63,992 bases of DNA, filler included, from Stramenopiles sp. TOSAG23-6 (GCA_900128565.1; 5 parts of 5 records of this genome joined end to end with filler, not necessarily neighbours in it); one strand, 5' to 3'. Positions 1 to 63,535 are shown, counted from the first letter of the whole stretch. Program-made: numbers and translations. The notes: generated by a model from the sequence alone, not told the origin.

Positions 1-789
1 ACGTGTATGTTTTATATGAATTTCTAATTTAATGTTTTTTTCATACGAAATTTCGTACCTAACTATTTTTTTTGAAATATTTTTTCACAATACGTGGAGT
101 ATGGTAGGTCATATAGTAGGACTCGGTGATCGTCATGGGGAGAATGTAATGGTTGATACAGTATCAGGTGAATGTGTCCATGTTGATTTTGATTGTCTCT
201 TTGATAAAGGCCTTGCTCTTTCTGTCCCGGAGCTTGCACCATTTCGCTTATCACCGAATATGGTAGATGCCCTAGGAGTAACTGGTGTAGAAGGAATATT
301 TCGGAGAGTATGTGAAATGACAATGGGTGAATTGCGAGGTAGACGAGAAATGCTTATGGGAGTATTAGAAAGTTTTATTCACGATCCTCTGGTTGAATGG
401 AAACGAAATGAAAAAAGAACGCGTAAGTACGTGTATGTTTTCATGATGAATTTTTTATCTATTTTTTTTTCATACATATCTAATGTATGTATCATACCTA
501 ACGAATTTCAAAAGTATAACATATTTCCCCAAAATACATTGGTGTTGAAGAAGAAGCGGAGGGGTCGTATCGTTTAGGCAGATGTGAGCAGAGATTACAG
601 GGTATTTATAACGTAACGAGACAACATTCACGATATGCAAGAACTACTGCAACAAATCCGATAGATTGTGAAAACATGGCTGACTCTCTTGGTCTTTCAG
701 TAACTGGCCAAGTAACAAAACTTATACGAGAAGCAACTAACAGTGAAAATCTTTGTCAAATGTATATAGGTTGGATGCCATTTTTGTGA
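1..789 (+). CDS. ATR: ATR/Mec1-like PIKK kinase, C-terminal part (5' truncated); exons <1-4, 96-432, 540-789
   Basis: WSMVGHIVGLGDRHGEN..HVDFDCLFDKG..PFRL kinase motifs. After removing introns it ends in FATC-like LSVTGQVTKLIREATNSENLCQMYIGWMPFL*. Confidence 0.9.
5..95 (+). other. Family intron, GT...GT ends
   Basis: gt|GTATGTTTT...TTTCGTACCTAAC...TTTTCACAATACGT|ggagt. Only 4 nt of upstream exon are visible. Confidence 0.6.
433..539 (+). other. Family intron, GT...AT (alternative donor at 427, same phase)
   Basis: Removal joins the kinase frame to the FATC-coding frame. Has TACCTAAC and ends AAAATACAT. Confidence 0.7.
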
Positions 790-872
790 TATGTTTCACA
801 AAATTGTGATATCCAGTTTGACAAAAAAATAAAGCATTCTATTTATAAAATTTTGTAATTTATAATCAATGA

Positions 873-3800
873 TTATGAAATGTGAAAACCACAAAAACCA
901 TAATGTATCACTACTTGAATTGCAGCTGCGCATTTTTCGTCCGAAGAATACTCGGGAAACTCACATTGAAAAAAACACGTGTGCGCCACGGGAAGGGTAG
1001 AGTCACCACCACCTCGACGAGTCAATTTGAAAGGTCTGCCCCAATCACTTTCTCGAGGTAACCGACTTCTTCCCCATACAAATCGGATAAATTGACTACG
1101 CTCGGATTGGTTTAGTTTTTCAATGGCTCTCCAAAAACGTTTTACGAAGATATTATTACTCTTCCCTCTCCAGCCTTCATAGAGAGTGTGTTTTTTTAGA
1201 ACTCTAATATCGACAGTCGTGTTTCCGCATACTAAAATTTGAAGTTGTTCACCAGATAGAAGTCGAATAGAACGTTCGGGAACTAATTCGAATAACCCCC
1301 TTCTAATTGCATCTATTTGAACATTAAACTCAGATAATCTTGCTATAAGTGCAAGTTGGACGTATTTCAATTTTTGACTCTGTTGAACTGGGATGCTCAA
1401 TATGTCCGAAACAAGTCGAATGCAGCTTTTCCCCCAAACTCCATTAATTGTAAAGTTCTGCATATAGGGAACATCTTTATATATTTCTAAAAATTCTTCT
1501 TCAGTCATTGGTTTAGATTCGTAAATGTCTTGCAAAAGTTGTGCAGTAATAAAATCAAATGACGACAATGCTCGAAATGCATTTAAATGCCACTGATGTT
1601 TATTTGTGTTAGGTCCTATATCAAAAGGTGTACCTACCGAGTTACACTTCCCCGTCAAAGCTGTCCAAAATGGAGGAGGCAGCAAAAACGGTAGGTAGTG
1701 TTGTGTACGAAGTGCAATACCCATCAAACGGCCCACAACAACAAAAGCACTCAAAGATTGGGGAGATTTTTGTTGTGGATTTGGTACAAAGCAATTACGA
1801 AAATTGCCTTCAGTATTTCTTCCATTGGGTGATTTGATGAACAATAATAGCGGTGGAGCATCTGATGACTCAGAAAATAGGTCATCTGTGATAAATGCAG
1901 TAAGGGTGTCTCTATATAAACCACCTGCATCAACACCATCCTCTCCACTAAACTTTACTTTAAATAATTGGGCATCTTTTAGACCGCCACGTAATGACGA
2001 TGCTGAGGCGCTTGCCAATGCATCAACAGCTTGTGCAAAAAGGCATTTTGATGTTTCAACTTGTCTAGCTGATAAATCATTTCGCGATTGCTCGCGACTT
2101 TGAAAAGCTTCTTGATTATTCAATGACATCGTGAATGAATCAATTTGACCTCGAGTTTTATATACCGCTGTATTTAGCATATTCATTTTACTTGCGAGAA
2201 AAATTTTAGACTTTAGGCGACTCAATTTAAGTCCAAGTGGCATTGATGGATTAATTTCATTTGCCGTAGAATCTATCGTTGTATTTGGGATATTGCGAAT
2301 ATTGAAGGTTTTTTCAATATTCGTATCTTCTATACTCATTAAATCCACTAAAGGGAGTACTCTATTGACGAAACCATTCCACAATCGAAGTATGGCAAAT
2401 CGAAGTCGAATAACGTAAGGAGCTTCAGTAATATTACCTTGATCTTCCGCAAACTGATCAAGAGGAAAATTAGCAAGTAATTGGAACCTGTTCTTTTCCT
2501 TTTCCGTAAGACGAGACATACAACCTGGTTGGAGATCAAATATAGAAGGTATCTTACGCTCTGAATTACCCCAGCGTCTATCAATAGAAATTGCTGAAGC
2601 CTCAAATGAAACTGATCGCTGTGTCACCAAACTCATCAACTCTTCATCCATACGCGATGTCCATATAGACATTGCTTTCGCCGCTTCTTTTAATCTTATT
2701 TCCATGCTCGGCAAACGCGAATACAATTCTCGTCGTTTAGCCTTGGCAGCTTGTTCCTTTGCTTCTGTGCACAATCGAGCCTCGTGGGCACATTTCACAA
2801 GAAAATTGCAAACTAAGGGATCTCTGCGTAACCATTTCTTGGAAAGACTGCGATTCAGCTCAAATAAAGAAGCTTCTTGTTCTTTCACGCTTGACATTTT
2901 TGTTGGTGAAAGACTAAAGTCACAGTCAGAAGTACCACCACAATTCAAATACCAAGCAAACTCTAGAGCTTGGTGTATTGACACACTTTTTGAAGATTTT
3001 GCAAATTCAACTTCAAATGGAATCACATAACGAGTGTTACATCCAACTGCAATCCGAAGATCTCTTTCAAGTATAACTACACCTGTAGTTGGGTCAAATT
3101 CTTTAATCACACTGCATTGCCACTGGATTGCATCAGACAAGGGGAATCCTCTTCCAGATCTTGTTTTCCTCAAAAATAATAAACGCCCAGAGTATTTTAC
3201 AGCGGTAGTATGGTGACTTGTTTCTGATCCCTCAGTATCAACTGAAACAATTTTCAACCATTTGTCTTTTATATCAAGCTTTAAATTATTTACGCTTAAT
3301 TCTTTATTCTTCAAATTTGCTTGTCCAAATTCTACTCTATCTAGGGCCCCCTTGTTGACATGGGTACCTTGCATAAATCTAAGATCATTCTGTATCGTCC
3401 AACACTGCCATAGAGATACAAAATTGGCTAATTCAATCCAATGTGTGATATTTTGCACATGGTTGAAACTTTGGTGAAGTAAATGCCTTTGCGATAAATC
3501 CATACTTTCAAACCACACTGGTATACTAGGATAATCTATCCAAACACGTTTTGTCCATTGAGAATCCATTGAATCACGTAAAGCTCTGGCTAATACGCAT
3601 ACAGGAAGCACACAACTAGAATCAGGGTTCGTCGTATTTGCTTTAACATATGAAGGATCCGATAATAAAAAGTCACACATATCAGAAACGACTAATAAAG
3701 TTCCAGATAAATCTTCTGGGCCAGGGATCCTTGGATGTCCTGCTAACTCTTCACTATCACTATCTGTATTATCATCTTTTGTCTTACTTGACGTAGAACA

Positions 3801-13301: not shown

Positions 13302-13431
13302 ATGTATTGTGAAAATATTTTTTTGTAAAAAAAAATTGTTAGGTACAAAATTTCTTACGAAAAAAATTAAATTTGAAATTAATTGTGAAAAGTAGAAAAA
13401 AAAAAAGAGGCCAAATGTAATGAACAAAATG
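13302..13431 (-). other. Family intron, 3' part (cut by gap)
   Basis: Minus strand ...TTTTGTACCTAAC...TTTTCACAATACAT|GAT CAC. It explains the Phe-rich false N-terminus of the ORF. An AG 8 nt downstream cannot be excluded here. Confidence 0.7.
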
Positions 13432-13531: not shown

Positions 13532-13599
13532 AAAAAAATTGTTAGGTACGAAATTTCGTACGAAAAAAAAATCGAATTTGAAAAAAAAATAAAACATAC
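13532..13599 (-). other. Family intron, 5' part (cut by gap)
   Basis: act at|GTATGTTTTATTTT...TTCGTACGAAATTTCGTACCTAAC. Confidence 0.75.
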
Positions 13600-15011: not shown

Positions 15012-16908
15012 ATGAGATTTTTTAGTATTATAGCCATTCTCGCTCACTGCAATATTGCAGTCGATGCCGCTACATGCACCGCAGATTGCTCTACGGAATT
15101 TATGAAGTGTATTAGAGCAAAGGAGTCTTATGCAGGATGCCATGACTTGCTTGATGAACCAAAAATGCAGAGTGCTGGGTGCGTATCTGGTTGTTCTGAT
15201 TCCAGCGAAATGGCCAAAGCAAAGATCGATTACCCAGGCGAAATAAATAATGGAAACCGAAATGCAAACAAGCCGTCGACAGGCTGTACCGAAAGTATCT
15301 TGGGAACACCCTCCACGCCAACTCTCTGTACAAAATCCGAAGCAAATCCTGCAGTGTATACCTTTTTTCCTATGAGTGGCACGTATGCAAAAACACAGCG
15401 TTACTTTTCTATATATTATCCTGGTGGTCAATGGGCCAATAGCACTAAAGCAAGACCTGTTGTATTAGAAATGTCTGGTTATGGAGGTCAAAGTTTTGTT
15501 AATGCAAATAGTAAAAGTGCTAAAGCAGCAGATCGGTATGGTTTCGCAGTCATTGACGTCAGTAGTCCACTTAACGATGGTAACGGTGGCTTTGGATTGG
15601 CATTTCCAAATAATGGAATAGCTAATGATACAAATCCAATTCCATGCAAAAAAGAAGATTCGCGTGATTTTGTATTTATTGAGGCAATCTTTACATTTAT
15701 TGCACAAAGTACCAGTGAAGTGAAAACCAAATTATTAGACGTTGAAAACGTCTTTACCATGGGATTTAGCCAAAATTCAATGTTTAGCGCTTATGTTGCT
15801 GTTTGTTTTAGTGATTTAGTGGCTGGTGTTTGGCAAGGTGGCAGTGGGCTTGCAAAGACTGGTTACAGCCCGGTTACTCCAGGTGTACTTTTTTATCATT
15901 TCAATTTTTTAGGTATTTTTTTTTCATACGTAATTTTGTACCTAACGATTTTTTTTTGAAATATGTTTTCACTTGACATGCACAAGCACAGTGTACGGAA
16001 AGCAGTTCATTAGCAAATGGCAATGATTGCTGCAAAGTTGAATTCTGCAAAGATTGTAGAGTACGTTTTTCAAAAACTTTTTATTTTTCTTTTTATTTTT
16101 TGTTGGAAGCTCCACAATAATCTTTTTCTAATAATCCCTAATATTATTTTTGTTAAAACTAACCCACCAATTCGATCCTACTTATACCCTCAAAAATCAG
16201 TACTGGCCTGTGTACCCAAAAACGTGTTCAAAGAGAATAGTTGATTGCATTGCTTCGTATACAAATGATGAAATTGCGTGTGGAACTGATTTATACATGT
16301 ATGAGGCCATGGTAAAAGAAGATAATGATGCAAGATTTTTGAGCTTTTCACCGACAACAGATATTGAAGGTGGACATAAAAACCCTCAAAATCCATGGTC
16401 ATGGAAGGCTGGCTGTCTTGGTTTATCAGTAAGCTGTACCTCGAGTTGTGAAACTTCATTCAAAGCATGTGTACAATCAGAAACAGGTAAAAGTACAGAG
16501 AAATTTGAAAATTGTGAAACTAAAATTGATGAGGAAAAGTTGATAGGATGTGTGAAAGGGTGTAGTCCAACGCTAGGAATGTTGCAATTAAGCGAGTCTC
16601 CAGTTGTCTCTCTCTCTAAAGGTCAATTTGGAACATTGACTGGTCTGACTATAACGGCCACTGCACCAACGCCAAAGTGTACAAATTCTATTGGTTGGTT
16701 CGGTGATCCTGGCTATGGAGCTTGTAGACCAACTGCAGGGACGCTACCAACTCAGGCATATACTCCAAGTGTAAGCGATACATGTGGTGCTGGTTATTCA
16801 TACAACGGAAGCGCTGGTGTTTTGAAGCACACTAGCCAAACGGGAACAAGAAAGATATCAACCATTGTTAATTTAATTGTATCGCTTGTTATGTTTCTTT
16901 CATTATAA
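15012..16908 (+). CDS. Secreted alpha/beta-hydrolase (PHB depolymerase/esterase-like), Cys-rich, possible GPI/TM tail; exons 15012-15884, 15980-16060, 16201-16908
   Basis: Signal peptide, RPVVLEMSGYGG, nucleophile-like GFSQNS, GGH, and a hydrophobic C-terminus. Confidence 0.7.
15885..15979 (+). other. Family intron, GT...AT
   Basis: cca ggt|GTACTTTT...GTACCTAAC...TTTTCACTTGACAT|gca caa. Gives an 81-nt in-frame exon up to the next intron. Confidence 0.75.
16061..16200 (+). other. Canonical GT-AG intron
   Basis: aga|GTACGT...ACTAAC...AAAATCAG|tac tgg, in frame. Confidence 0.8.
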
Positions 16909-20593: not shown

Positions 20594-21594
20594 TTAATCA
20601 TTCATATGATGTTTTTTCGATTGTAATTTCGAAATTTCTCTTTGAAGAAGCTCTAATTTTCTCTGCTTTTCTTGCTTTAGGGCTAATACACTGTTTCTCA
20701 AAGGAATTAAAGATTTTTCCATTAATAATACTAACGCTTTCTGAAACACCGCCGCAGAAAATGCTCTCTGGCCAATTATTCCACTATCAGTTTGACTATC
20801 TTTTCTAATACTTTCAAAGTAGAGGTCTCTTTCTTCCTCAAATAATATCTTTTGAAGGTGAAGCAAACATCGCTGTGATTCCGATAAGGAAGTTGAACAC
20901 TGATTGGTTTCTAAAACCTTAGGAGAAATTACAGATATTGGAATATCCGCTCTAAGCTGCCTTCCATCATCAAGAACTCGTGTTTGGAACGCTGTCATTT
21001 GCAACCTACCCCTACACATAGAGTCTGTATTGAATGGTGCTGCAATAATTCCACAAAAATTTTGGGACATTTGCTGCCATAGATACTGAGTACGAACATC
21101 TATTTGTGAAAATTGTGCACTAAAATATATGAAAAGTTAACTTCTATTCAAAAAAAGTAGAATATAAATGTTCAAGTTGTTTGATACAGCAATAATTTAC
21201 AATTGAATACAGTGATTTGTAATATTTACTTACCAACATGAGAAGGGTGTACAGTAATATGTGGGTGGGAATGAAACCATCCAATAACTCGAGTTCGCAC
21301 TCCTAAACGTTTACTCATTTGTTCAGCCAGTGTCGATGCGTTAGCAAGTTGTTCTGGAGAAATCTCCACTCTATCTTTACGCTTATCTGAACGAGTGAGT
21401 ATAGTAGAACCCCATACATGTGCAACACATTTTGTATTATTTTTATTATGAAGTTCCCCATCAGTCATGTCCAAGCCCTCCTCGGTTTTCCAATCCCCGA
21501 GAAGAAGACTCATAACTTCCTGCTTTTCCGTCACTTGGGCGTGAACAAAACAAGACCAGAGAACATCCCACGTTATCTCCACTCGCGTTAACAT
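20594..21594 (-). CDS. BRCC3: BRCC36-like JAMM/MPN+ K63 deubiquitinase; exons 21594-21234, 21099-20594
   Basis: TEKQEVMSLLLG, RSDKRKDRVEISPEQL, GWFHSHPHITVHPSHV|DVRTQ. Confidence 0.9.
21100..21233 (-). other. Canonical GT-AG intron
   Basis: gtt g|GTAAGT...TTTTCACAAATAG|at gtt restores PSHVDVRTQ. Confidence 0.88.
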
Positions 21595-26840: not shown

Positions 26841-26939
26841 GTATGTTTTATTTTTTTTCAAATTCGATTTTTTTTTCGTACGGAATTTTGTACCTAACAA
26901 ATTTTAGTTTTTTTTTTTGAAATATTTTTCCAAAATACA
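26841..26939 (+). other. Family intron (end at gap)
   Basis: at|GTATGTTTT...GTACCTAAC...TTCCAAAATACA. Confidence 0.75.
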
Positions 26940-36802: not shown

Positions 36803-39453
36803 CTATTGATACGCTGAAGAAACGGAAGGCCATTCATGTATTGTGAAAAAAAAGTACACAATTTTTGTTATTAGGTACAAAATTTCGTACGAAAAAAAAA
36901 ATAAATTCGAAATTAAAAAAAAATAATGAACACGTACATCTTCCTTCTGTTTTTGAGGTGGGTTCTGTTGGTTACTCTGTACCTGAGACCATTGTTGTTG
37001 TTGCTGTTGCTGCTGTTGTTGTTGTTGTTGTAACCATTGTTGTTGTTGTTGTTGTTGTTGCCAATTATCGGATATAAGTCCACTAGAATTATATAAACCA
37101 TCATTCCGCTGTGAAGGAGGTTTTATGTATCGATTTCCCATACCTACATTCGAATTCTGTACCCTGTAATTTACTTGTTGAGGCATAGAATCAGGACGAG
37201 GAGCAGGTGGTCGCATCATACTGAAATTAACACCTCTCGACTCTATATTTCTGTTGCCCATGTGCAAATTCATATTTCCAAGATGCAGACTATTCATTCC
37301 ACCACCAGATACTTTAGATGTAGAATATGCGCTGTTTGTATTATAAACTTGATTTGTATTATGACTTCCAGGAATTTGATTATGTCCTCTTTCGTGGTTG
37401 TATTGCTGATTATTAATTTGATTATGTCCTCTTTCGTGGTTGTATTGCTGATCATTTAAATTATGCTGATACTGAAGTTTACTTGATTGTAATTGATTCA
37501 TTACAACATCATTACCCGGTACCACATTCTCTGTATCGTTTACTTTAGGTTGAGCTACTCCATCGGGTTCAGGTGGTGGGCAAAGTAATCGTTCAAGAAG
37601 CTCAGTAACTGTAGTTGATTTTAGATCAACACTGTCTGATTCTACATTTGTAGATGAATAAGTATCACTAACAGGTACCACATTACCCATGGAATCACTG
37701 CGCATAACTTTATTTCCTTCTGAAGTATCTGGCTTCGATCCACAAATACAAAGAATATTGTATGCGCGTGCGAATTCTTTCAACACTTGTGGCCAAGAAC
37801 GTCTTGTTAAAACATGAGCAATATCATAACTATGTTCAAATGGATCTTCAATGCACAATCTACTATGAAGTGTCCATCCACATTTTCGACTCTTTAATTT
37901 AGTACTTACAGGACCTCTTTGCCTAACACTCACAACATTGCGCGAATAATTCATTCCCCAAGCATAAAACCAAAAGAAAGCTGCAAGTAAATTACCTATA
38001 TCATCAGTATTTCGTGCACAAAATGCTCGAAGATTAGCTAAACGTGAACTAGATCCTCCAGCAGCATCTGCACTTTCTTCTTTATCTTCTGGATCATAAA
38101 AGTATGTGTTTTTTTCTTTTCCATCAGGTCCAGCCACTAATACTTCAGGTAATGCTCCTTTCGTTTTTAACAGTTCGTCTTCTTCTTCACGAGTCATCGA
38201 ATGACCATTCCAAGTAGGTGGTAAAGAAGTAAGACGAGGGAGAACGGGTGGTTGTCTTTTTCGACCATCTTCATCAATATTCGAATTTGTTGCTGTAGGT
38301 GTTGAATTCGATGCAGTTGAGGAATTATTATTAGCACCAGGAAGAGTTAAACTACCATTACCATCTCGAGAATGCCACGCTAGCCAACGTCCACAAGGAT
38401 CTTCCTGTTGTAAGAAGTATACAAGCAACATCACAAAAGCGTATGAGGATAAAGTTCCATCTTTAGGACAATTAATTCTACGATTTTTTGACCATATTTT
38501 AATTATATACGCTAGTTGGCGGACACGTGGGTCTGCGGTAGAATACGCGCGTAATAATGCAGTATTACGCAGAGCGAGTTTGTTATTGACACAAATATCG
38601 CATTCTAAACCAGATTTTGGATCTAAAAACATAACTATTGGAATACGAGCTGTGCGTCTATCATGCACATTGATCATTCCATGCTTTTCCAAAAGTTGGA
38701 CTAGTGCTTCAATCAATTCTTCAGGCTTTAACTGTTCCATCCAACTTCTGCCTCTAGCCCAAGAAGGAGTTGGTAAAGTAAGACACATATCCATATCACT
38801 GCCTTCTGATCCAAATCCATATATTGTGAAAAAAAATTTAAAAAATTAAAATTGTTTAGGACAAAATTTCGTATTAAAAAAAATTAAATTTGAAATTGTA
38901 TTAAAAAAACGTACATTTACACTAGATCCAAAAAGAGATAATTCTGCACCTGGCCAATTTAATGCAGATATCATTCGATTCAATCTTTGTACTAGTTCAG
39001 CACGATTGTTATCAAACGATGCATCAGGCATCAACGATGGTAGTTTGGCTAAACACTGCTCACGTAAAGAATTGATTGTATTTGATGAGAGGCATGTGGA
39101 AATATGTACTTTGGAAAAATATTTCAAAAAAAAAAAACTAAGATTTGTTAGGTACAAAATTTCGTACGAAAAATAATTTCGAAATTAAAAAAAATAAAAC
39201 ATACATTATATAAACTAACATCAACACCTAAAAGCTTTTGACGCCAGACTAATAATTGTTTTCTCCTTTCAGGTGGTAAAACTTCCATCAATACACGATT
39301 TTCCCCGGCAGCACGAAGTAAGCCAAGTAAGTCCAACAAAATTGAATTTGCACGGCCTACATTTCGGCCTCCTCCATCTTCAATAGCTGAAGAGCCACGT
39401 GAAACAGCAGATAATAAATTTGACAAATCTCGAGATCTACCATTTTTTGACAT
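36803..39453 (-). CDS. Cid1/TUT-family terminal uridylyl/poly(A) nucleotidyltransferase; start uncertain; three introns
   Basis: LFGSSVN|GFGSEGSDMDMCL, ARIPIV, ECDICVNN, GTLSSYA, LCIEDPFE; polyQ tail. Confidence 0.85.
36836..36937 (-). other. Family intron, GT...AT (102 nt, stopless)
   Basis: gat|GTACGTG...TTTTCACAATACAT|gaa tgg. Confidence 0.75.
38819..38914 (-). other. Family intron, GT...AT
   Basis: aat|GTACGTTTT...TTTTCACAATATAT|gga ttt restores the NTase signature FGSSVNGFG..SDMD. Confidence 0.88.
39104..39204 (-). other. Family intron, GT...AT
   Basis: aat|GTATGTTTT...GTACCTAAC...TTCCAAAGTACAT|att. The AG 5 nt upstream is out of frame. Confidence 0.8.
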
Positions 39454-53918: not shown

Positions 53919-54008
53919 TTTCAAAAAAAAAAAACTAAAATTTGTTAGGTACAAAATTTCGTACGAAAAAAAAAATTCGATTTTTTGTAAAAAAAAAATA
54001 AAACATAC
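53919..54008 (-). other. Family intron (3' end cut by gap)
   Basis: cat|GTATGTTTT...TTTTGTACCTAAC. Confidence 0.75.
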
Positions 54009-56164
54009 ATGCTGTTGTTCCCAAGGTGGTAAATATTGTTCTGTCATGGCAATTTTTTCACGTTCTTTTCGACGACGCAGGTACTGTGAAAAAATATGTT
54101 TTCCGTTTGAAATTCGTTAAGTTTGTACTAAAATTGGATTACTTACATTGGAATGATAGAATTAGGTACAAAAAAAAAACACATTTAAAATTAAACCGGA
54201 CAAAAGCGTACAAGAAGATAAGACGTTTTAAACAAAAATTGTGAAGTACAAAATTTTGTACGAGAAAATATCAATTTGAAATTAAAGCGGACAACGTACA
54301 ACCTCTCATTAGCTTGTTTCACAATATCAGGATGCGGTGAACTAATGCTTACACCATTCATACTATCATACTGCACTGAAGGCTCCTTTGAATTATTTGA
54401 GCGCATTTGTATCACATGTATTCCTATAAATAAAGTGCAACAAGGGCAAATTATATGTTGAATGTCAAAGTTCCATTTGTCATGTGAAATTGTTCAAGTA
54501 TTGTGAAAAAATATTTGAAATTCAACTTTTTTGTTAGGTGTAAACTTCAGTATAAAAACAAAAAATAGGTAAAAAAAATCAATTTTGAAAATGTACGCTT
54601 CACATCCGATGCACCAACACAGCGACCATCGCCAATGCAGTAAGTATTATAACTATCTTCGAGAGACACATTAACTAATGGTGACTTCTGTGATGATACA
54701 CTAAGCCTTTCTTTATTTAATGCACTGTATCCCGCAATACTTTGTACTCTACAAATCGTATGCTCACAAGCACTGCAGCATAGCATTGCACTGGTAACAT
54801 TTTGACCTATTTCAAATGCAAGATTCCGACCAAGAATATTTTGATGTTCACAAGGATGTGAGCCACGAAGTAATGGATACTGTGATTTATTCCGCGCTTT
54901 CTGAATTGACTTTTTCAATGCCTGTCGGTGAAGTCGATTTGCTCGATTGAAATATTTGGACATGAGCTCTCTACTTACCATTCGTTCTCTTCTCTGACGA
55001 CGTAGAAGTCGTCCATATAAAACATGAGCCATCGCACGGACATAGATTGTAAAAAATAGTAAGAAAAAAATTGTTAGCTAACCCTAATCCTAACCCAAAA
55101 GAATTTCATACAAAAAAAAATTTCAAAAAAAAAAATCAATTTTGAAAACGTACTCTGTCGACTATACCTACATTATTATTGTTATTGTTTCGCCCTCGTC
55201 TTACTACTGCAGCGCTAAGATTAATGGGCGCTGTTTTTTGAAAAAATATTTTAGAAAAAAAATCATTAGGTACAAAATTTCGTACGAAAAAAAATTCGAA
55301 ATTGAAAAAAAAATAAAACATACCTGGAGGCTCCGGTGTTTCTAATCTCAGATCTTCTTCGTCGTCCGAAAAAGCAGCGGTTAAAAGAATAGGGACTTGC
55401 CACCTGGATGACTCAGATTCGATTTCATCAACATTTGATGGAATATTTGATGGAACATTTAATTGAATATTTGATGGAACATTTGATTGAATATTTGATG
55501 GAACATTTGACTGCTCACTTGGTATCGTATATATATTATGTGGAATAGTAGTAGAATTTCTATATTCTTCATGTTCGATATGAATTTCAGTTGGAATAGT
55601 ATGAATAGGATTTACAACGTCATTTGGTTGAATTACAAGCATATTATCTGTTGTATTTTCTCCTACGTCGATCATTTCCTCAACGTCAATTGAATTTTCT
55701 TTAGACTCCGAGACACTTTGATTTGATACTACGCCATCAAATTCAAATATCCTACTTTGATTCAAATTAGTCGATTCTCTATTATCAAAAAATATCACAG
55801 GCAAGTGTTCAATGTTGCTATCCATGTTCCCCCCGTTATTCATAGAGCAACCAGCAGGAGTTGGAGTTGCTGCTCTAGAATTGGGTCCTCTTATAATATC
55901 CATAGGCTGATTCCAGTGATTATTTTCAGAACTGGTAGCCCCACCTCCTTGTTCCGAGCTGAAACCATTCATTTGAACTTGATGAACGCGTGGATTTGTA
56001 AAGATATTCGTGGATAAGCTGTTAGTACTGGGTTCTATTACAGCTGCACCGTTCAATTCTTGTACAGTTGATGGGTCTCTCCTGAGCGGTATTAGCAGAT
56101 TTCTCTGAACTACTTCTTCATCATTTGATGAAATGGCAATAACAGGATCAGAATCTTTCCCCAT
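54009..56164 (-). CDS. Protein with disordered N-terminus and Yippee/Mis18-like Zn-binding region (3' truncated); exons 56164-55324, 55230-55154, 55041-54597, 54495-54300, 54078-54009
   Basis: CSACEHTIC...HIICPCCTLFIG pair. All exon phases join consistently. Confidence 0.6.
54079..54299 (-). other. Expanded family intron, GT...CT
   Basis: tt|GTACGTT...TTTTCACAGTACCT|g cgt. Contains more than one partial core copy. Confidence 0.65.
54496..54596 (-). other. Family intron, GT...TT
   Basis: aag c|GTACAT...CCTAAC...TTTTCACAATACTT|ga aca. Confidence 0.72.
55042..55153 (-). other. Family intron, GT...AT, with telomeric insert
   Basis: aga|GTACGTTTT...GGGTTAGGATTAGGGTTAG-CTAAC...TTACAATCTAT|gtc. 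Confidence 0.72.
55231..55323 (-). other. Family intron with canonical GT-AG ends
   Basis: cc ag|GTATGTTTT...GTACCTAAT...TTCAAAAAACAG|cg. Confidence 0.8.
55430..55511 (-). repeat. Exonic tandem repeat (SNVPSNIQ)
   Basis: ATTTGATGGAA(C/T) units with 12/24-bp period. Confidence 0.8.
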
Positions 56165-56510
56165 ACTTTAAATACTGATCAAAACTATAGGTAATGTATT
56201 CCCGTTGCTGTTGTTCGAAAAAAAGAGGTATTATATACCTTTCGAACAATATAATAGAATAAAGTGAGATGCGTTTAACGAATGTGAAGAAAGTTCCTCG
56301 GTCAAATACCGATTTTTTATTAAGTACGAAAATTCGTAGTAAAAAATTAACTAGTGTCCTTGATTGACACGATTGAATTGATTCTGAATTGATTAAATTG
56401 AGATTATTTTTTCATTTTTTTTTGAGGCGTTTCGGGAAGTAATTCATCGATTTGGTGTGATTGGCATGATAGTTCTATAATTTTGTGTGGAATTATCGCC
56501 ATTATATTGG

Positions 56511-57724
56511 ATGGATACGAACGCAGATGACTATGATATTTCCCCTCGTTCATACAGAAAATGGTTGCAAAAAAAGAAGGAAAAAGTGATACGAGTCGAC
56601 ATTGCAACTCGTAAGAGGTGTGGTTTAATGTTGGATAGAGTAGGAACTTGTATGAGCAAAGAACTATCTGGACGATTGGAGAAGTGTATATTTAATCTGT
56701 TTGGAGATGATAAGAAGAAATATGCTCGAATTGCGAGGACTATTTGTAAAAACTGTACAAAGCATGATTTCATTCTTTTTGCGCTTGTTGAAGGAAGACT
56801 CAAACCAGATACACTTTGTTCAGAGGCCAATATTGCTGGAGAATGGGTTCGTCGCCTACTTCGATATCATGCACCAGCTGTATTAATTACGGTACCATCG
56901 ACTTTGCAATGTTTACCTGACCCAGTTGTTACAACAATCTTTAATTTTCTGAATGCAGTCGATCTGGGTGTTGCTTCTGCTACTTCGATTTTGTGGAGGG
57001 ATTTTTGCTCTCTCAATAAATTCTGGGCATATCATATTAGCCAAGCTAAATATAAAAAAAAACTTGAATACATTGATAATGGTACTATTTCAACTACGAT
57101 TGCCTCGTCACTGAAATGTACGTTTTCATATCAATTTCGAATTTATTTTATTTCGTACCAAATTTTGTACGTAACAAAAAACATTTTCAACCAAAAAAAA
57201 ATATTTTTTCACAATACGTGTAATCCTTCTGGTTCCAGAACCAAAAGAATGAAACGTACATTGTCGAACATCTCTTCTAAAGTAACAGATCCCCAAGGTA
57301 GGAGAAATGCTGACTCAAAAGTTGAAAGATCCCCATATTGTATTCAAAGAGAATGTTTGAAGGATGAATATATAAAATTGTTTTATTCGAAGAAAAAAAA
57401 AAATTGGTACGATTTATCAGGTACAAAAAACTCTGCTAAAATCTGTAGCACAAAATTTCCTGTTGAGGACCAATATTGCATTTGTCCTCGTTGTAAGGAT
57501 GATGCTACTATAGTTTCATATACTGGTAGAGGGTTGTATGTTTTATTTTTTTCAATTTTTTATCTAAATAGTTTTTCGTACGAAATTTTGTACCTAACGA
57601 ATTAAAAAACTTATATTTTTTTTCACAATACATAGAATATTATAAAATGGGAGTTTGCAATTCATGCTCAAATCAGTTTATGATTGAGAATGCAAATGTT
57701 GGAAAATGCCATACCAAAACTTAA
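56511..57724 (+). CDS. TFIIS-central-like + F-box + Zn-ribbon protein; exons 56511-57117, 57220-57535, 57634-57724
   Basis: LEKCIFNLFGDDKKKYARIARTICKN; LQCLPDPVVTTIFNFLNAVDL..W; CPRC...CNSC. Confidence 0.7.
57118..57219 (+). other. Family intron, GT...GT (102 nt, stopless)
   Basis: aaa t|GTACGTTTT...TTTTCACAATACGT|gt aat. Confidence 0.7.
57536..57633 (+). other. Family intron, GT...AT
   Basis: tt|GTATGTTTT...TTTTCACAATACAT|a gaa. The AG 2 nt downstream gives a stop within four codons. Confidence 0.8.
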
Positions 57725-57906
57725 AATTTTATAGTCCCGGTACCTTTTACGTAGTAGGATTCGATTTTTTACAGTTTCATTTTTTCGCAGAGTTTGTTGA
57801 CTGGTGAAGATGTGAAGTATCTTGACAAGAACAATAAGTTGTGTGTATTAAAAATAGTTATAAAAAGTATCAAATAAATGTGTTCTTTCCCCGGATGTTT
57901 ACATAA

Positions 57907-60900
57907 ATGCCAGATATAAACAAGACTAACCCAGTTGAGATGACTCAGTGTTCTGATCCCCTCTGTCGTATGTATTTAAATAAGCCATTCGCAGCAATGA
58001 TGATTGGTTTAAAAGATGGTGCTCGTATTATTCAGCTTCACGGAGTAATACACTGGGCGTCACTCGTTTCTAGACTTCGCCAGATATCGCTCCCTTGTAT
58101 CCATGGAGAGTATAGCCCTAATAATAGGAAACCAATTGCAATTTTACTTCGAGAGGAAAGTATTGTCGTTTTATTTGAAAATATTAGTGACGCCATTCGA
58201 ACAGCCCATGAAATTTGTGAATGTTGTAAGGAGAATAATCAGAAGTATAAATTGGCTTCTAAAGGAAGTAAAAATCATCGACATTACTCAATTCCGTTGA
58301 AAGGTATTGTCATTGATTATGGTAATTCTATAATTATTGATAAAAAAGAAAAGATGCATGGGAAAGTGGCCCTTCAACTGAAGCAACTGCTGAGTGACTG
58401 CGCCGAGGGGAAAATCCTTGTATCGAGTTCAGCTTTCAAAGCACTTTCTTCACTATGTGAGACGTCTACTCGAGTAAAACGAATATTCCGTGAAGCATCT
58501 TGGAGTTCTTATAAAGGTACATCATGCTTTGATGGAGGAATTCGTATAAAGACTAAACTTTCAGCGTATAATAACTTTGACTATGTACGTTTTATATGAA
58601 TTTCTAATTTATATTTTTTTCATACGAAATTTTGTACCTAACAAATTTGAGTTTTTTTTTTGAAATATTTTTTCACAATACATACTGGAACACAATACGC
58701 AATGTTGACCCAGAGACTTGACCCAAAGGATATTATAAAAACTGATCAACTCCTCAAGCATTTCGTGAAGTGTAGTGTGGTACTTGCAGTATGTATCAAT
58801 GTTGACCGCATACAAAGTCGAACGAATGTGTCAGATGCTGTCTTGTGCTCATTGCATGTAAAAGCTGCTTCTCTAAGACTGGTGGAAGAAGCATGCAGTA
58901 AGTTTGGTGGATGGGAAATAAGCGATGCTATATTTGGATTTAAGGATGTTTTGCAAGCAGCATTAGCCGCGCTATACCTTCAAGAGTTAGTAAAAAACAG
59001 CTTAGCCAAAGCAATGGAACAAAAGGTAGCAGAACAAAAACAGAACTTTCTGAAAAAAACAGGTAAAGAAATGATAAAAAATAATGGTACATCTCAAATT
59101 AAACCTCACTCATTTTCTTCCCCACGTTCCAAATCAAGATCACCATCTCCTGTACGCGCATCTACATTTCAGAAACCATGGATATTATATAGTGAAGTTG
59201 CAAAATCAATGGTTGGCATTGCCATTGAGTGTGGTACTATTTTAGTTGTACCACGAACAGATATATGTTGGGGTGAAGCTGTGCGTAAAGCCACAGCAAT
59301 GGCAAATGAAGCTGCAGAAGGTGGACAATTAGTCATATCAGGAAAGGTGTATGATACATTATACTGCCTCCCACGAGCTGTGGAAAGAATGATGTTTTTG
59401 AAAAAGAAGATGGCAAAACATCCTCATCAACGTAAAATGATGTCAGCGATTGGAGTTACATCTTTATTCACGGTTGCGGGAAAAGGAGATACACTATTAG
59501 AATCTAAATTGTCAGAGGAAACTAAAATAATAACTAAAGAAACAGGAAAACAGAAACAGAAACAGAAAAAATATAGTAGGAAAAAAAATATTTCTAATCA
59601 AGATAATTCCAACGAAGAAGTTCTCGATAATAAATGGGCAAAATTGTTTTTCAAGAAGCCAGTTGCAGTTCTTGCAACAAAACTCCAATCGATTTCAAAG
59701 TTATGTAAAAATCATGGTTCAATTCACATGGTATCTATTATTCTCCGGTTTCGACAATTAGTTTTACCACATATATATAAATGTGAGCCATTATTTGTGA
59801 AAACGGAAGTCGATAAATTATTTGTGGTGTTTGACACAACAGCGGCTGCAGTGAAAGCCGGTGTGTACTTATATGCGGTGATAAATGAGTTTGTACGTTT
59901 TCATCATTGATTTTAATTTGTTTTGTTTATACCTTGGATAATTTTATTTAGATACCTAACGATTTTCGAATGTGGTATAGTTTTTCACAATTCATAATTC
60001 TCGCATCGGATCAGCACCTAGTAAGAAAAAATTTGCGGTTCCACTAGCTGCCGTGGCTATTGCTTGGGGGAAAGGGGTCGTTGTAGATGTCGAAGATAAA
60101 ATACATGGCTGGCCTTTTCATATGGCGCAAGCTATGGTGGAAAACGTAGGTTTGCAGTGCGACTTAGTTCTTTCTGTCGATGCATACGAAAAGATAGAGA
60201 GCATCTCAGATTTTTCCATGGCCAGATTTTACACACAAAAGAAAAGTAATATTGTGCGATTGGATCCAGAATCACTAATAGACAATATTGAAAATCTCGT
60301 GATAACTCCATTGAATGACTTTACTCAAGTTTCAAGAAAAGCAAATTTGTTTCTTAAACGAATGGATATCAAACCATCAATGTCTTCGATGGAGCAAGGT
60401 AATCTGACAAAAATGCAAGATCGGTTATTACGTCGGAAGTATCTAAAACCATGTGCATTTGTTGTGATTCACCTTGAATTACACTGTGGTAATGCTGTGG
60501 ACACACTTGGTGCAAAGTTTGCTCTTCTTCCCAAACTAAAACAAATTTTTGTAGCTCATGGTGCTAGCACTGTCGAGGATGTATTATATATGTTTGATGA
60601 AGTTTCATCTGCAATAGTTGCAGCGGTGGAGGTATGGAGATTTGTTCATTCGCTTGATTCAGAAATGAATGTTCTTAGGGGAATTGCTGTTGGTGGAGGA
60701 GATTTATGTCTCGTGTATGGTACAGATATTCACTACGGCGATTGTCTCAACACGGCATTTCATCTTGCTCAAGTTGAGGCAATAAATGGAGAATTATTAT
60801 TATCAAATGAAGCATTTCAATTAATACCACTTCCTATGCCAGATTTTCATGGTAGACCGTACGGTGATGACTTACTTCCAGTCACGAGATTGATGAATAA

Positions 60901-61711: not shown

Positions 61712-61782
61712 ATGAATTTCTATATAAAGAAATAAGTTGTTTATTACTTGTATTTTGTATTATCTTTTCATTCAGTAATATT

Positions 61783-61877
61783 GTATGTTTTATTTTTTTT
61801 TTCAATTTCGAATTTATATTTCGTACGAAATTTTGTACCTAACGAATTGTTTTTTGAAATATTTTTCCAAAATACTT
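61783..61877 (+). mobile_element. Full family copy with TT direct repeats, antisense within the PfkB gene end
   Basis: tt[GTATGTTTT...TTCGTACGAAATTTTGTACCTAAC...AAAATAC]tt. Confidence 0.75.
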
Positions 61878-63535
61878 GACATTGCAACCACTGTGGACAT
61901 TCATCCATTCTTGTACCATACTATTAGTAAATGGCTTGGTACATGCGCCTTTTTGCTCTACACACATTGCTCCACATGCACTTGCATAAATTTTGAAAAA
62001 ATATTGTTTTTATTAAAAGAAATCGTTAGCATTAGCTACTCCGGATCAATCTAAAATTACAAAGAAAAACAAAAAAAAAAGGACAGAAACAAAAAACAAA
62101 GAAAAACAAAAAAAAGGACAGAAACAAAAAACAAGCATATGAAAACATAATCAAACTACTTAAATATAAAGAAAAAGACGAAACATCATTTATCGCTTCA
62201 CTTCAAGGTGACAAAAAAGGAGTTCAAAAACGTATTGAAGCAATGTACAAAATTTCGTACGAAATAAAAACATCAAATTCGAAATTAAAATGAAAACGTA
62301 CATACACCAGAGCATTATGAAGCGTCTCATTGGAAGCATTATTTCGTGCAGGTAACCAAATATGCAAAAAACCTGCATTAAAAGCATCACCAGCTCCAGT
62401 AGAATCCACTTCCACCACCCCTTTGAAAGGAGAGCAACGAAAAAAAAATCTTCCCTTTTTATTGACAATACCAAATACAGTGAAACATATTTCAAAAAAA
62501 AAAATTGTTAGGAATTTTTGTACGAAAAAAAAAAAATATTTCAAAAAAAAATTGTTAGGTACGAAATTTCGTACGAAAAAAAAATCGAAATGAAAAATGA
62601 AAACGAACGATAGCACTGCCGCGTTTATCTAATTTAATGATGCAGATGCGTTCACGAATTGAATGCATTGAATTTTCTTGCTTATCTGTAGAACAAGAAT
62701 TATTTTTCATCATCATATCTAACAATTTATTAAGGACAGATAATAAAACACTCTCTGAAGTAGGGTTAGGGTTAGTACTATGACTTTTTAAAGTATCTTT
62801 AGGGTTAGGGTTAGAAGGAGTCGTTGAAGCAGTTAAATTAGTATTTGAGATGGCAAACGCTTCACTCTCTGATGGCAAGAAGACAGTGATTAGCTTCAAT
62901 AATGTATAAATATCTCTTTCAAACCCAGTCCATTTACCGCTTGCATCATATTGAGGGTCTAGCGACACTGTTAGAGATAAACTATTGTCTGTAATTCGAG
63001 TTTTTATAACTTGAGAAAGAACACCATTTTGTAAACCATTGCAACTGAAATATCCACCAATGTGTAAATGATCTACTCCATTGAATAAATTCCGGTTGAC
63101 ATGTGTCATGTTAAACGCAGAGACACATCCACGACAACTTACAAAGGCACGTTCTGCTTTGTCATTTACCAGGACCAAACAAGTTGCTTGTGATTCTCCA
63201 TTCAGTACTATTACACTATCTGACGTCAAAACTAATCCCTCAGAAAACAGCTTTGAGAGAACCCAACGACCAAGATTACAACCACCAACAGCACCGAATA
63301 GCCTAACACTATGAACACCTAATCCGCCAAGCAGTCGTGCAGTGTTACAACAACCACCACCAAGTAATAAATCAACCGAGTGTACCTCTCGGTCTTCACC
63401 CCAGGCAGGAATACTTGAGAGTTGTGAAGTATTAACATCAACAAAAATATCTCCTATACATCCAACTGAAGTTCCCCTGTTTTGGAAATAATACCATTTC
63501 CCAAAGAAATACTTCCAAATTGTATTCATATACAT
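61839..63535 (-). CDS. PfkB-family carbohydrate kinase; exons 63535-62609, 62472-62302, 61985-61839
   Basis: GGGCCNTA, FLPSESEA, VDSTGAGDAFNAGF, ALVY|ASACGAMCVEQKGA. Confidence 0.9.
61986..62301 (-). other. Expanded family intron, GT...AT
   Basis: tat|GTACGTTTT...GCTAAC...TTCAAAATTTAT|gca. Internal duplication at ~62060-62133. Confidence 0.78.
62473..62608 (-). other. Family intron, GT...TT, with duplicated branch region
   Basis: atc|GTTCGTTTT...CCTAAC...CCTAAC...TTTCACTGTATTT|ggt. Confidence 0.72.
62761..62814 (-). repeat. Two exonic telomere-like tracts read as NPNP
   Basis: TAGGGTTAGGGTTAG at 62761-62775 and 62800-62814. Confidence 0.8.

What the first reader, a model, noticed from the sequence alone, without database searches (positions are those of the whole stretch)
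5..62608. Most introns appear to splice without a 3' AG (GT...AT/TT/GT/CT/TA)
Seen: of 26 introns with both ends visible, 22 are best read with a non-AG end (15 AT, 3 TT, 2 GT, 1 CT, 1 TA), while donors are U2-like (GTAYGT) and a CTAAC branch-like motif is usually present. Conserved motifs fix several junctions: DBP5 HRI|GRTGR (32972-33094), TUTase FGSSVN|GFG (38819-38914), OTU DGNCLFR|ALADQ (26497-26589), PanK L|CATGGGA (28836-28933) and PfkB ALVY|ASACG. In most of these, the nearest AGs cause frameshifts, stops or motif loss. Established: U2 splicing normally depends on the YAG acceptor, with few known lineage-wide exceptions (e.g. Fritillaria, Amoebophrya, euglenid nonconventional introns). 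Inference: this lineage has a relaxed or rewired 3' splice-site rule. I do not recognise this GT-NN pattern from a described system but cannot search the literature.
Basis: partly seen in the sequence, partly recalled or inferred. Interest (0 to 1): 0.97.

Follow-up and report, generated by a model that had tools for sequence, protein, structure and literature searches.

The report
Mobile introns that lack the 3' AG
Most introns in this marine protist DNA are copies of one small mobile element that begins like a normal intron but ends in AT or TT instead of the near-universal AG, which would mean its splicing machinery joins exons by an unusual rule.

Summary
I curated 26 introns with both ends visible. 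Their 3' ends are AT 15, TT 5, GT 2, CT 1 and AG 3.

In-silico removal joins the best open frames in all 24 testable cases. Homology fixes four junctions to the residue:
- both DBP5 junctions;
- the TUTase junction;
- the OTU junction, in 43 of 43 homologues.

Of 21 introns examined for equivalent cut positions, only 1 can end in AG.

They are copies of one ~95-125-nt introner-like repeat: GTAYGT, a palindrome, CTAAC, a T-tract, CACAATAC, then NT. Copies lie almost only in the sense orientation. They are hugely over-represented in independent seawater DNA. The last two bases repeat the 5' flank more often than chance (11 of 26, P=0.012).

A public gene model for DBP5 forces GT-AG and deletes helicase motif VI.

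RNA proof is missing. The only RNA data available were short contigs with no exon-exon joints. My best reading is spliceosomal removal with an AG-independent second step. Confidence is about 0.7.

The parts
5..95 (+). Element-type intron, GT..GT. The 5' flank GT equals the last two bases.
   Evidence: only 4 nt of upstream exon lie in the window
433..539 (+). Element-type intron, GT..AT, upstream of the exon that encodes a FATC domain
13302..13431 (-). Element copy cut by a contig end. The 3' part ends CACAATACAT before the 4185-aa HECT ORF.
13532..13599 (-). Element copy cut by a contig end. The 5' part reads AT|GTATGT.
15885..15979 (+). Element-type intron, GTACTT..GACAT
16061..16200 (+). 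Intron with a canonical AG end (GTACGT..CAAAAATCAG); frames join
21100..21233 (-). GT-AG intron in the BRCC36-like gene (GTAAGT..TTTTCACAAATAG). It skips an out-of-frame AG at 21120. It is not an nhmmer family hit but has the same 3' motif.
23122..23214 (+). Element-type intron, GT..AT, flank AT, in the ankyrin-repeat gene
26497..26589 (+). OTU intron, GTAGTT..TAATAT; the junction is fixed at DGNCLFR|ALADQ
26841..26939 (+). Element copy cut by a contig end (AT|GTATGT..CAAAATACA then N)
28836..28933 (+). PanK (Fumble) intron, GTACGT..CAATACTT
   Evidence: a DNA contig of run X2 spans it
32621..32740 (+). DBP5 intron 1, GTAGGT..TATATAT
32972..33094 (+). DBP5 intron 2, GTACGT..CAATACAT; it splits helicase motif VI
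33758..33850 (-). Element-type intron, GT..AT, flank AT
34873..34947 (-). Short intron, GTACTT..CATACTT. It joins ORFs of 302 and 352 aa and resembles the family only weakly.
36836..36937 (-). Element-type intron, GT..AT, near the 3' end of the TUTase gene; only 10 codons follow
38819..38914 (-). TUTase intron, GTACGT..CAATATAT; the junction is FGSSVN|GFG
   Evidence: a DNA contig of run X2 spans it
39104..39204 (-). Element-type intron, GT..AT, flank AT
53919..54008 (-). Element copy cut by a contig end (AT|GTATGT..)
54079..54299 (-). Composite intron of 221 nt with two element cores, GT..CT
54496..54596 (-). Element-type intron, GTACAT..CAATACTT
55042..55153 (-). Element-type intron, GTACGT..CAATCTAT
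55231..55323 (-). Element-type intron with an AG end; the 5' flank is also AG (AG|GTATGT..AAACAG|)
57118..57219 (+). Element-type intron, GT..GT, in the F-box gene
57536..57633 (+). Element-type intron, GT..AT, flank TT
58585..58683 (+). Element-type intron, GT..AT, flank AT; used as the nhmmer seed copy
59893..59995 (+). Element-type intron, GTACGT..CAATTCAT
61783..61877 (+). Element-type intron, GT..TT, flank TT
61986..62301 (-). PfkB intron of 316 nt, GTACGT..AATTTAT, flank AT; composite of element parts
62473..62608 (-). PfkB intron, GTTCGT..TGTATTT, with a duplicated element core
27941..27983 (+). Partial element copy upstream of the PanK ORF; no clear 3' end
31315..31355 (.). Palindromic element core only, upstream of the DBP5 start codon
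33310..33356 (-). Degenerate partial copy between two convergent genes
34281..34338 (+). Partial copy antisense to the gene that contains it; it is read through in frame
56283..56346 (-). Degenerate partial copy between two divergent genes
63929..63970 (+). Partial copy near the window end

Best explanation
The introns are copies of one short introner-like mobile element.

Anatomy, 5' to 3':
- GTAYGTTTT;
- a T-rich stretch with AATTTCGAA;
- a palindrome, GTACGAAATTTYGTAC, running into the branch motif CTAAC;
- a T-tract;
- (A)TATTTTTTCACAATAC;
- two more bases, usually AT.

Proposed mechanism. Copies sit in the sense orientation inside coding exons and are removed from the pre-mRNA by the major (U2-type) spliceosome. 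Step 1 uses the element's own yeast-like donor and branch point. Exon ligation occurs 32-44 nt downstream of the branch A, exactly two bases after the conserved CACAATAC. The final dinucleotide there is NT in 23 of 26 introns and AG in 3.

I infer that in this lineage the 3' site is placed by the T-tract plus the CA(C/A)AA(T)A(C) motif and its distance from the branch point. I further infer that the second step tolerates U in place of G at the last intron base.

The last two bases tend to repeat the two exon bases before the donor. This fits a 2-bp target-site duplication, so removing the element plus one repeat copy restores the original coding sequence.

Shown: the repeat family, its anatomy, exact junction positions at four conserved sites, frame restoration, sense bias, and presence in bulk DNA.

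Inferred: removal at the RNA level, use of the spliceosome, how the 3' site is chosen, and how the element spreads (DNA transposition or reverse splicing).
For: Repeat family.
- nhmmer finds 28 non-overlapping loci in 64 kb.
- An alignment of 21 introns shows the donor, the palindrome plus CTAAC, and the 3' motif conserved while the rest diverges.
- One further copy lies on an unrelated metagenome contig, L001. It has the same AT|GTATGT..ATACAT| ends and joins frames of 178 and 46 aa.

Exact excision.
- In 24 of 24 testable introns the frames join.
- Both DBP5 junctions restore conserved blocks present in 13 homologues.
- The TUTase exons meet at Pfam profile positions 50 and 51.
- The OTU junction matches 43 of 43 homologues.

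No AG route.
- Only 1 of 21 introns can end in AG under any equivalent cut position.
- For DBP5 intron 2 all four AGs listed downstream (to +35) shift the frame.

Cut position. The invariant OTU Arg (43 of 43) and the conserved DBP5 Gly are encoded only if the cut is directly before GT.

Strand-specific removal. 22 loci lie in sense next to ORFs of 100 aa or more, 2 are antisense or core-only, and 4 are ambiguous. Genes on both strands carry copies.

Not an assembly artefact and not lost from bulk DNA. Contigs from an independent seawater DNA run (X2) span the PanK and TUTase introns. Bins holding the element reach summed depths of 2,400-20,700, against 5-20 for unique bins.

The motif marks the site. 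The three AG-ended introns carry the same CA(A/C)AAA..(C) motif directly before the AG. Intron 21233-21100 passes over an out-of-frame AG 20 nt upstream.

Target-site duplication. The 5' flank equals the 3' end in 11 of 26 introns, against 6.4 expected (permutation P=0.012). The matches include GT/GT, TT/TT and AG/AG.

Precedents.
- Introner families are known that carry their 5' site and take the 3' site from the target-site duplication (10.1101/2022.06.06.494994, passages read).
- Yeast lacking Prp18 uses non-YAG 3' sites (PMC10711555, abstract start in the search listing).
Against: No RNA evidence of the spliced form.
- In the one read-laying allowed, none of the 15 joints shown (of 205) is an exon-exon joint.
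- RNA-library contigs retain intron sequence. X6 record 22 spans all of 32621-32740. X5 record 14 spans 34873-34947. X5 records 13 and 10 start inside the second DBP5 intron and the PanK intron.
- These two libraries cover 27 and 24 of 30 bins at low depth. The tool warns that they may hold DNA, so this neither shows nor excludes retention.

Other weak points.
- A search for short protein fragments spanning the DBP5 junctions found none.
- The target-site-duplication signal is modest. Given equal last bases, the second-last base matches in 11 of 20 introns against 8.45 expected (P=0.10).
- The terminal inverted repeat is only 4-6 bp.
- No spliceosome genes or snRNAs lie in the window (Rfam found 0 hits) and no whole genome is held. 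A changed splicing machinery is therefore untested.
- Frame restoration alone shows only that intact ORFs received insertions.
Confidence: 0.7

Rival explanations
1. The same segments are excised from RNA by a route independent of the spliceosome. The model is the nonconventional introns of euglenids and some diplonemids, where pairing of the intron ends, not splice-site consensus, defines the cut.
For: The ends form a short palindrome (AT|GTAT ... ATAC|AT), which could bring both junctions together. Nonconventional introns lack conserved ends and rely on secondary structure (PMC6221363, abstract and passages; PMC12621601, abstract and passages).
Against: The donor GTAYGT and the branch motif CTAAC are the best-conserved parts of the element, whereas nonconventional introns lack a U1-complementary 5' end. 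Six folded copies give z-scores from -1.44 to +1.97, so there is no stable structure. Most GTAC donors have no compensating base at the 3' end (by inspection).
Confidence: 0.08
2. Splicing is canonical. The spliceosome uses nearby GT and AG sites as in the public gene model, and the proteins tolerate the resulting deletions or insertions.
For: The public CDS P0001 for DBP5 uses GT-AG sites and is open. Several introns have in-frame AGs 12-90 nt downstream.
Against: P0001 lacks helicase motif VI (HRIGRTGR) and a 9-residue conserved block, both present in all 13 homologues aligned. The window encodes both exactly beside the elements. The OTU and TUTase junctions are exact to the residue. Seven of 21 introns have no usable AG within about 60 nt.
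Confidence: 0.05
3. The cut lies two bases to the left, giving AT..AC introns of the kind spliced by U12-type or rare U2-type AT-AC pathways.
For: Where the flank is AT and the element ends ATACAT, the AT..AC reading gives the same mRNA. This holds for 5 of the 21 introns examined. A at the first and C at the last intron base are a known compatible pair (recalled, not from a call).
Against: In that reading both ends vary among copies. The 5' end would be AT, TT, GT, CT, GG, AA, GC, AG or GA. The OTU junction would encode His where 43 of 43 homologues have Arg. The first DBP5 junction would encode Met where the homologues have Gly. The U12-type donor (ATATCC) and branch motifs, recalled, are absent.
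Confidence: 0.05
4. The elements are removed from DNA in the expressed genome, as with the internal eliminated sequences of ciliates. The assembly would then represent the unprocessed form.
For: The elements are short, AT-rich, bounded by short repeats, and excised precisely in silico.
Against: Independent bulk seawater DNA holds the elements at these loci at the depth of the flanks (X2 records 1 and 6). Copies follow the strand of the gene they interrupt, which DNA excision would not require. Spliceosomal signals are conserved. The ORFs use standard stop codons.
Confidence: 0.04
5. The elements are not removed at all. They would be recent disruptive insertions, with many genes dead or dying.
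For: RNA-library contigs contain unspliced copies.
Against: The window holds 26 complete intron copies and 4 truncated ones. Two sit in DBP5, and others sit in the catalytic motifs of OTU and TUTase. The copies have diverged from each other (71-97% identity in blastn matches; alignment). Even so, every flanking ORF stays open, up to 4185 aa. Only sense copies persist in genes.
Confidence: 0.03

Closest known systems
[quoted passage not shown]
   Same: A short non-autonomous repeat is inserted in exons. The element supplies the donor, and the last intron bases come from the duplicated target. Removal of the element plus one repeat copy restores the coding sequence. The organism is marine.
   Different: In the published families the co-opted site is AG. 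Here it is AT, TT, GT or CT in 23 of 26 introns. The published surveys accepted only AG or AC 3' ends unless RNA data supported another end (PMC12130899, methods passage). A family like this one would therefore have been filtered out or never annotated.
Non-canonical introner elements of Amoebophrya (PMC7789003, abstract and passages)
   Same: Repeated introns in a marine protist that break the GT-AG rule. Short direct repeats overlap the exon-intron boundaries, so the exact cut is ambiguous.
   Different: The Amoebophrya elements have 8-20-nt inverted repeats that form hairpins, many families, and variable motifs at both ends. Here there is one family with a strongly canonical donor and branch point. 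Only the last dinucleotide deviates, and no stable hairpin forms.
Fritillaria and other tunicates in which most introns escape GT/AG (PMC13326754, abstract start in the search listing)
   Same: Lineage-wide departure from the terminal dinucleotide rule, handled by the major spliceosome.
   Different: In the tunicates both ends are affected, and the abstract attributes this to changed U2AF and snRNA modification. Here the 5' end is canonical and the machinery could not be examined.
Nonconventional introns of euglenids and some diplonemids (PMC6221363, PMC12621601; abstracts and passages)
   Same: No AG at the 3' end, and short complementarity between the intron ends.
   Different: Those introns have no conserved borders or U1-complementary 5' end and depend on stable end-pairing. 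These have GTAYGT and CTAAC and no significant structure.
Non-YAG 3' sites used by yeast lacking Prp18, and rare TG 3' sites in human genes (PMC10711555 and PMC2374985, abstract starts in the search listing)
   Same: They show that a U2-type spliceosome can ligate at a non-AG site once proofreading or positioning of the 3' site is altered.
   Different: Those are minority, alternative or mutant-dependent events. Here non-AG ends are the rule in a wild organism.

Membership tests
Introners (intron-generating repeated elements) | Many related copies of the same intron sequence in unrelated genes of one genome | tested here: met
   28 nhmmer loci in 64 kb across genes for DBP5, TUTase, PanK, PfkB, F-box, ankyrin and others
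Introners (intron-generating repeated elements) | Copies act as introns: sense orientation, and removal restores the ORF | tested here: met
   Frames join in 24 of 24 testable introns. By orientation, 22 loci are sense, 2 antisense and 4 ambiguous. This is in silico only.
Introners (intron-generating repeated elements) | Signs of transposition: target-site duplication and/or terminal inverted repeats | tested here: inconclusive
   The flank equals the 3' end in 11 of 26 introns against 6.4 expected (P=0.012). Given equal last bases, the test gives P=0.10. The terminal repeat is only 4-6 bp.
Introners (intron-generating repeated elements) | Presence/absence differences between relatives (empty sites), showing recent mobility | not testable with these tools
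   No whole genome is held. The metagenome scan gave one locus.
Introners (intron-generating repeated elements) | RNA evidence that copies are spliced out | tested here: inconclusive
   No exon-exon joints appear among the rows shown, and RNA-library contigs retain introns, though DNA carry-over is possible.
U2-type GT-AG spliceosomal introns | GT donor with an extended U1/U6-matching consensus | tested here: met
   GTACGT or GTATGT in 17 of 24 introns; the rest are GTA or GTT variants
U2-type GT-AG spliceosomal introns | Branch-point motif upstream of the 3' end | tested here: met
   A CTAAC-like motif in 17 of 21 introns; the branch A lies 32-44 nt from the junction in 16
U2-type GT-AG spliceosomal introns | YAG at the 3' end | tested here: not met
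   3 of 26 introns end in AG. Only 1 of 21 can end in AG under any equivalent cut position.
U12-type AT-AC or GT-AG introns | (A/G)TATCCTT donor and a TCCTTAAC branch site close to the 3' end (motifs recalled) | tested here: not met
   The donors are GTAYGT and the branch motif is CTAAC at 32-44 nt. The AT..AC cut position conflicts with the OTU and DBP5 residues.
Euglenid-type nonconventional introns | No conserved borders; a stable structure pairs the two ends | tested here: not met
   The 5' end and branch point are conserved. Fold z-scores run from -1.44 to +1.97 in 6 copies.
Ciliate-type eliminated DNA segments | Absent from bulk (somatic) DNA; excision independent of gene strand | tested here: not met
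   Independent seawater DNA contigs span the introns, and copies show a strong sense bias.

The most novel reading that the evidence does not exclude
An uncultured marine protist lineage has a major spliceosome that no longer needs AG, or any fixed dinucleotide, for exon ligation. It would place the 3' cut by a T-tract plus CACAATAC-type motif at a set distance from the branch point. That freedom would have let one small mobile element colonise coding exons in very large numbers, whatever two bases it duplicated on insertion. On this reading most of the organism's introns are young, homologous and non-AG, and current gene models for the lineage are systematically wrong.
Probability: 0.55. Interest if true: 0.92.

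Novelty: new variant of a known kind. Interest (0 to 1): 0.8.

Why it matters
The 3' AG is among the most constant signals in eukaryotic gene expression. Structural work (recalled, not from a call) explains it by contacts of the last two intron bases with the first intron base and the branch adenosine.

This would be a natural lineage that keeps a yeast-like donor and branch point yet ligates after AT, TT, GT or CT at nearly every intron. That would isolate the second catalytic step as the part that changed, and would make the question of what really positions the 3' site directly testable.

It also bears on how introns arise. An element that need not land on, or create, an AG has far more permissible insertion sites, which could explain its density of roughly one copy per 2 kb here.

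There is a practical consequence too. Gene predictors that insist on GT-AG damage the models. The public DBP5 model loses its motif VI. Protein catalogues and functional inferences for this abundant ocean lineage may carry many such errors.

Tried and rejected
RNA evidence.
- The look-up of sequencing runs listed three RNA runs with small shares of the query words (0.12, 0.12 and 0.06).
It was then run on 27040-40398 with X5, X6, X8 and X2.
- The result was short contigs only. No exon-exon joint appears among the 15 of 205 joints shown; the listed joints are repeat-to-repeat jumps between element copies. Splicing is therefore neither shown nor excluded.
- In the poly(A) run X8, element-holding bins have summed depth of 0.5 or less, while unique pieces have 2-8.6. 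The DNA run X2 shows the reverse, by a factor of about a thousand. This fits removal from mRNA. However, the tool states that contig depth cannot rank parts of a gene, so I do not count it as evidence.
- A 12-nt loose end at 31469 in X8 is a small duplication next to the DBP5 start, not a splice.

Protein fragments spanning a junction. Searching the 76-aa DBP5 middle exon among proteins of 41-133 aa found nothing. The five-intron gene at 55139-56167 found nothing among proteins of 188-601 aa.

More copies elsewhere. A 20-nt core pattern gave 0 hits in viral contigs and 1 in metagenome contigs (L001).

Other dead ends.
- Whole genome: none is held, so splicing factors and snRNAs could not be examined.
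- Rfam on the window: 0 hits.
- An early automatic donor/acceptor scan was too loose and was dropped.
- A diplonemid origin was considered and set aside. The only source label seen, on P0001, reads like a marine stramenopile assembly, and the introns do not fit the nonconventional type.

Literature. None of these searches and reads described a GT..AT introner family or non-AG introns in marine stramenopiles:
- 9 searches;
- passages read in PMC12130899, 10.1101/2022.06.06.494994, PMC7789003, PMC12621601, PMC6221363, PMC10161547 and PMC5778133;
- PMC12614181, which had no occurrence of 'intron' or 'splice'.
One paper on diplonemid single-cell genomes is not held. Supplementary tables of the introner surveys, which list species and families, are closed and may bear on novelty.

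Full report
**What the window is.** It is not one locus. It consists of five contigs of about 13.4 kb each (1-13431, 13532-26939, 27040-40398, 40499-53818, 53919-63992), joined by N44-TTAATTAATTAA-N44 linkers. Neighbouring contigs need not be neighbours in the genome. G+C is 33-40%. No whole genome is held. The best DNA holder among public runs is a very small run (X1, 0.96 of the words). Three seawater DNA runs from another study hold 0.40-0.62. The only source label seen for a protein of the window, on P0001, reads like a marine stramenopile single-cell assembly. I use it as a hint of lineage only.

**Checking the observation.** A scan for GTAYGT followed by CTAAC showed at once that the sequences after the donors resemble each other. 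Iterated nhmmer from one copy found 28 non-overlapping loci. I then curated introns with both ends visible:
- 21, after one wrong donor pairing was dropped and one donor was moved by 1 nt;
- three more (16061-16200, 62608-62473, and 62301-61986 with its donor re-set by 4 nt);
- one at the window start (5-95);
- one that is not a family hit (21233-21100).

That makes 26. With the cut placed before GT, the 3' ends are AT 15, TT 5, GT 2, CT 1 and AG 3.

**Are the junctions real?** Removing each segment joins the independently longest upstream and downstream frames in 24 of 24 testable cases, where chance would give 1 in 3. The cautions:
- two introns cannot be tested (5-95 and 36937-36836);
- two pass trivially, being stop-free multiples of three;
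- two passed only after the donor was re-set.

Homology fixes four junctions to the residue.
- DBP5. A three-exon model aligned with 13 homologues restores the G[HY]xVxxLxG block across 32621-32740, and DxxTYxHRIGRTGRFG across 32972-33094. Solved structures give the same picture for the two small exons.
- TUTase. The exon before 38914-38819 ends at position 50 of Pfam PF22600, and the next exon starts at position 51.
- OTU. All 43 homologues whose match starts at query residue 1 or 2, among the first 50 rows listed, carry DGNC.FR directly before the residue aligned to the first residue of exon 2. The window's upstream exon ends the same way.
- PanK fits roughly: Fumble profile 72 at the upstream exon end and 82 at the downstream exon start. 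The PfkB exons are confirmed.

**Can an AG be used after all?** Where the exon end and the intron end share bases, the cut can slide without changing the mRNA. I listed every such equivalent cut for 21 introns. Only 55323-55231 can end in AG. Seven of the 21 have no in-frame, stop-free AG within about 60 nt. For the second DBP5 intron, the four AGs listed downstream (to +35) all shift the frame.

A public CDS for this very gene (P0001, 100% identical over the shared exons) forces GT-AG. As a result it lacks motif VI and nine residues of the other conserved block. The non-AG ends have evidently not been taken into account in that annotation.

The introns are homologous to one another. An alignment of 21 gives this consensus:
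- GTAyGTTTT;
- a T-rich part with AATTTCGAA;
- TTTTTTTTCGTACGAAATTTTGTACCTAAC, a 16-nt palindrome running into the branch motif;
- a T-tract;
- ATATTTTTTCACAATAC plus two bases.

Further observations on the family:
- Copies differ by indels and substitutions, yet the donor, the branch region and the 3' motif persist.
- Four copies are cut by contig ends, as expected if the assembler broke at a repeat.
- In an independent seawater DNA run, bins holding a copy reach summed depths of 2,400-20,700, against 5-20 for unique bins. This total may include other organisms.
- A further copy sits on an unrelated metagenome contig. It has the same ends and restores the frame.
- Some introns are composites of two copies (54299-54079, 62301-61986, 62608-62473).
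- Of the 28 loci found without regard to genes, 22 lie in sense next to ORFs of 100 aa or more. Two are antisense or core-only, and four are ambiguous.

**Where exactly is the cut?** Three readings give the same mRNA when the flank is AT: GT..AT, TG..CA and AT..AC. Cases where the flank and the 3' end differ decide the matter.
- The OTU junction encodes the invariant Arg only if the cut is before GT. The cut two bases to the left would give His.
- The first DBP5 junction encodes the conserved Gly, not Met.

So the donor is GT, and the intron really ends in NT.

**How the 3' site may be chosen.**
- The branch A lies 32-44 nt from the junction in 16 of 21 introns.
- AT dinucleotides also occur upstream in the T-tract, so 'first AT' cannot be the rule.
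- The junction always lies two bases after the CA(C/A)AATAC-type motif.
- The three AG-ended introns have the same motif directly before the AG: CAAAAATC-AG, CAAAAAAC-AG and CACAAAT-AG.
- Intron 21233-21100 passes over an out-of-frame TTTTAG 20 nt upstream.

I infer that the motif plus its distance from the branch point places the cut, and that the last base may be U or G. No stable RNA structure supports end-pairing: z-scores run from -1.44 to +1.97 in six copies. GTAC donors show no compensating change at the 3' end (by inspection).

**How the element spreads.** The two exon bases before the donor equal the last two intron bases in 11 of 26 introns, against 6.4 expected (permutation P=0.012). 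The matches include the informative pairs GT/GT, TT/TT and AG/AG. Given equal last bases, the second-last base matches in 11 of 20 introns against 8.45 expected (P=0.10). This fits a 2-bp target-site duplication, with 4-6-bp terminal inverted repeats, but it is not proof. Reverse splicing into AT|G-like sites is an alternative; 15 of 24 downstream exons begin with G. Published introner families include some that carry the 5' site and take the 3' site from the duplication (10.1101/2022.06.06.494994, passages). In this family the duplicated bases are simply not AG.

**RNA evidence.** This is the weak point. One run search and one read-laying were allowed. The RNA runs are kept as short contigs. 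No exon-exon joint is among the 15 of 205 joints shown. Several contigs from two total-RNA-type libraries retain intron sequence. Those libraries cover nearly all bins at low depth, and the tool warns of DNA in them. Two protein-fragment searches found nothing. Removal at the RNA level therefore rests on four indirect arguments:
- conservation of the spliceosomal signals;
- the sense bias;
- intact ORFs around diverged copies, in genes that cannot do without the split motifs;
- presence of the copies in bulk DNA.

**Comparison with what is known.** The closest kind is the introner. The closest non-canonical case is Amoebophrya, whose elements have long inverted repeats and variable motifs at both ends. 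Tunicates such as Fritillaria break the rule at both ends (listing). Euglenid and diplonemid nonconventional introns lack conserved borders and depend on structure. Yeast without Prp18 uses non-YAG sites (listing).

Nine literature searches and the passages read gave no description of a GT..AT introner family or of non-AG introns in marine stramenopiles. Supplementary tables could not be seen, and one relevant paper is not held. The introner surveys state that families with unfamiliar splice sites were kept only if RNA data supported them, which would have hidden a case like this.

**Verdict.** I rate it a new variant of a known kind. Confidence in spliceosomal, RNA-level removal at these exact junctions is about 0.7. 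Interest is 0.8, pending junction reads.

Noticed in passing
13432-13531, 26940-27039, 40399-40498, 53819-53918: The window is a chain of five contigs of nearly equal length (~13.4 kb) joined by N44-TTAATTAATTAA-N44 linkers, so adjacent genes across a linker are not neighbours. Four contig ends fall inside element copies.
   Followed up: yes
31488-33290 (+): A public CDS for the DBP5-like gene (P0001) forces GT-AG splicing. It lacks helicase motif VI and a 9-residue conserved block, both of which the DNA encodes beside the two elements.
   Followed up: yes
34281-34338: A partial element copy lies antisense inside a coding exon of a minus-strand gene. It is read through in frame as about 20 residues, so it may be an exonised fragment.
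   Followed up: partly
873-13430 (-), 40499-49027 (-), 49077-53780 (-): Three very long ORFs (a 4185-aa HECT/UBA ligase, a 2843-aa ORF with no Pfam match, and a 1567-aa ORF) carry no element inside them. By contrast, contig 5 has about 13 copies in 10 kb. This uneven density is unexplained.
   Followed up: no
21100-21233 (-): The GT-AG intron of the BRCC36-like gene skips an out-of-frame TTTTAG (ending at 21120) and uses the AG after TTTTCACAAAT. The 3' motif of the repeat family therefore also marks a non-family intron.
   Followed up: partly
36065-36571 (+): An intron-less Cu/Zn superoxide dismutase gene is covered end to end by a 566-nt contig of the poly(A) metatranscriptome run X8. This shows the organism is present in that RNA sample.
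   Followed up: partly
54079-54299, 61986-62301, 62473-62608 (-): These are composite introns built from two element cores (nested, tandem or partly deleted copies). An RNA-library contig from another locus shows two elements abutting and sharing the AT between them (table 5c).
   Followed up: partly
23184: A single N lies inside the intron 23122-23214.
   Followed up: no
L001:2477-2580 (-): An unrelated 3.2-kb metagenome contig (35% G+C) carries another copy of the element. Further downstream it has a GTAAGT-type donor-like site and TTAGGG-like repeats.
   Followed up: partly
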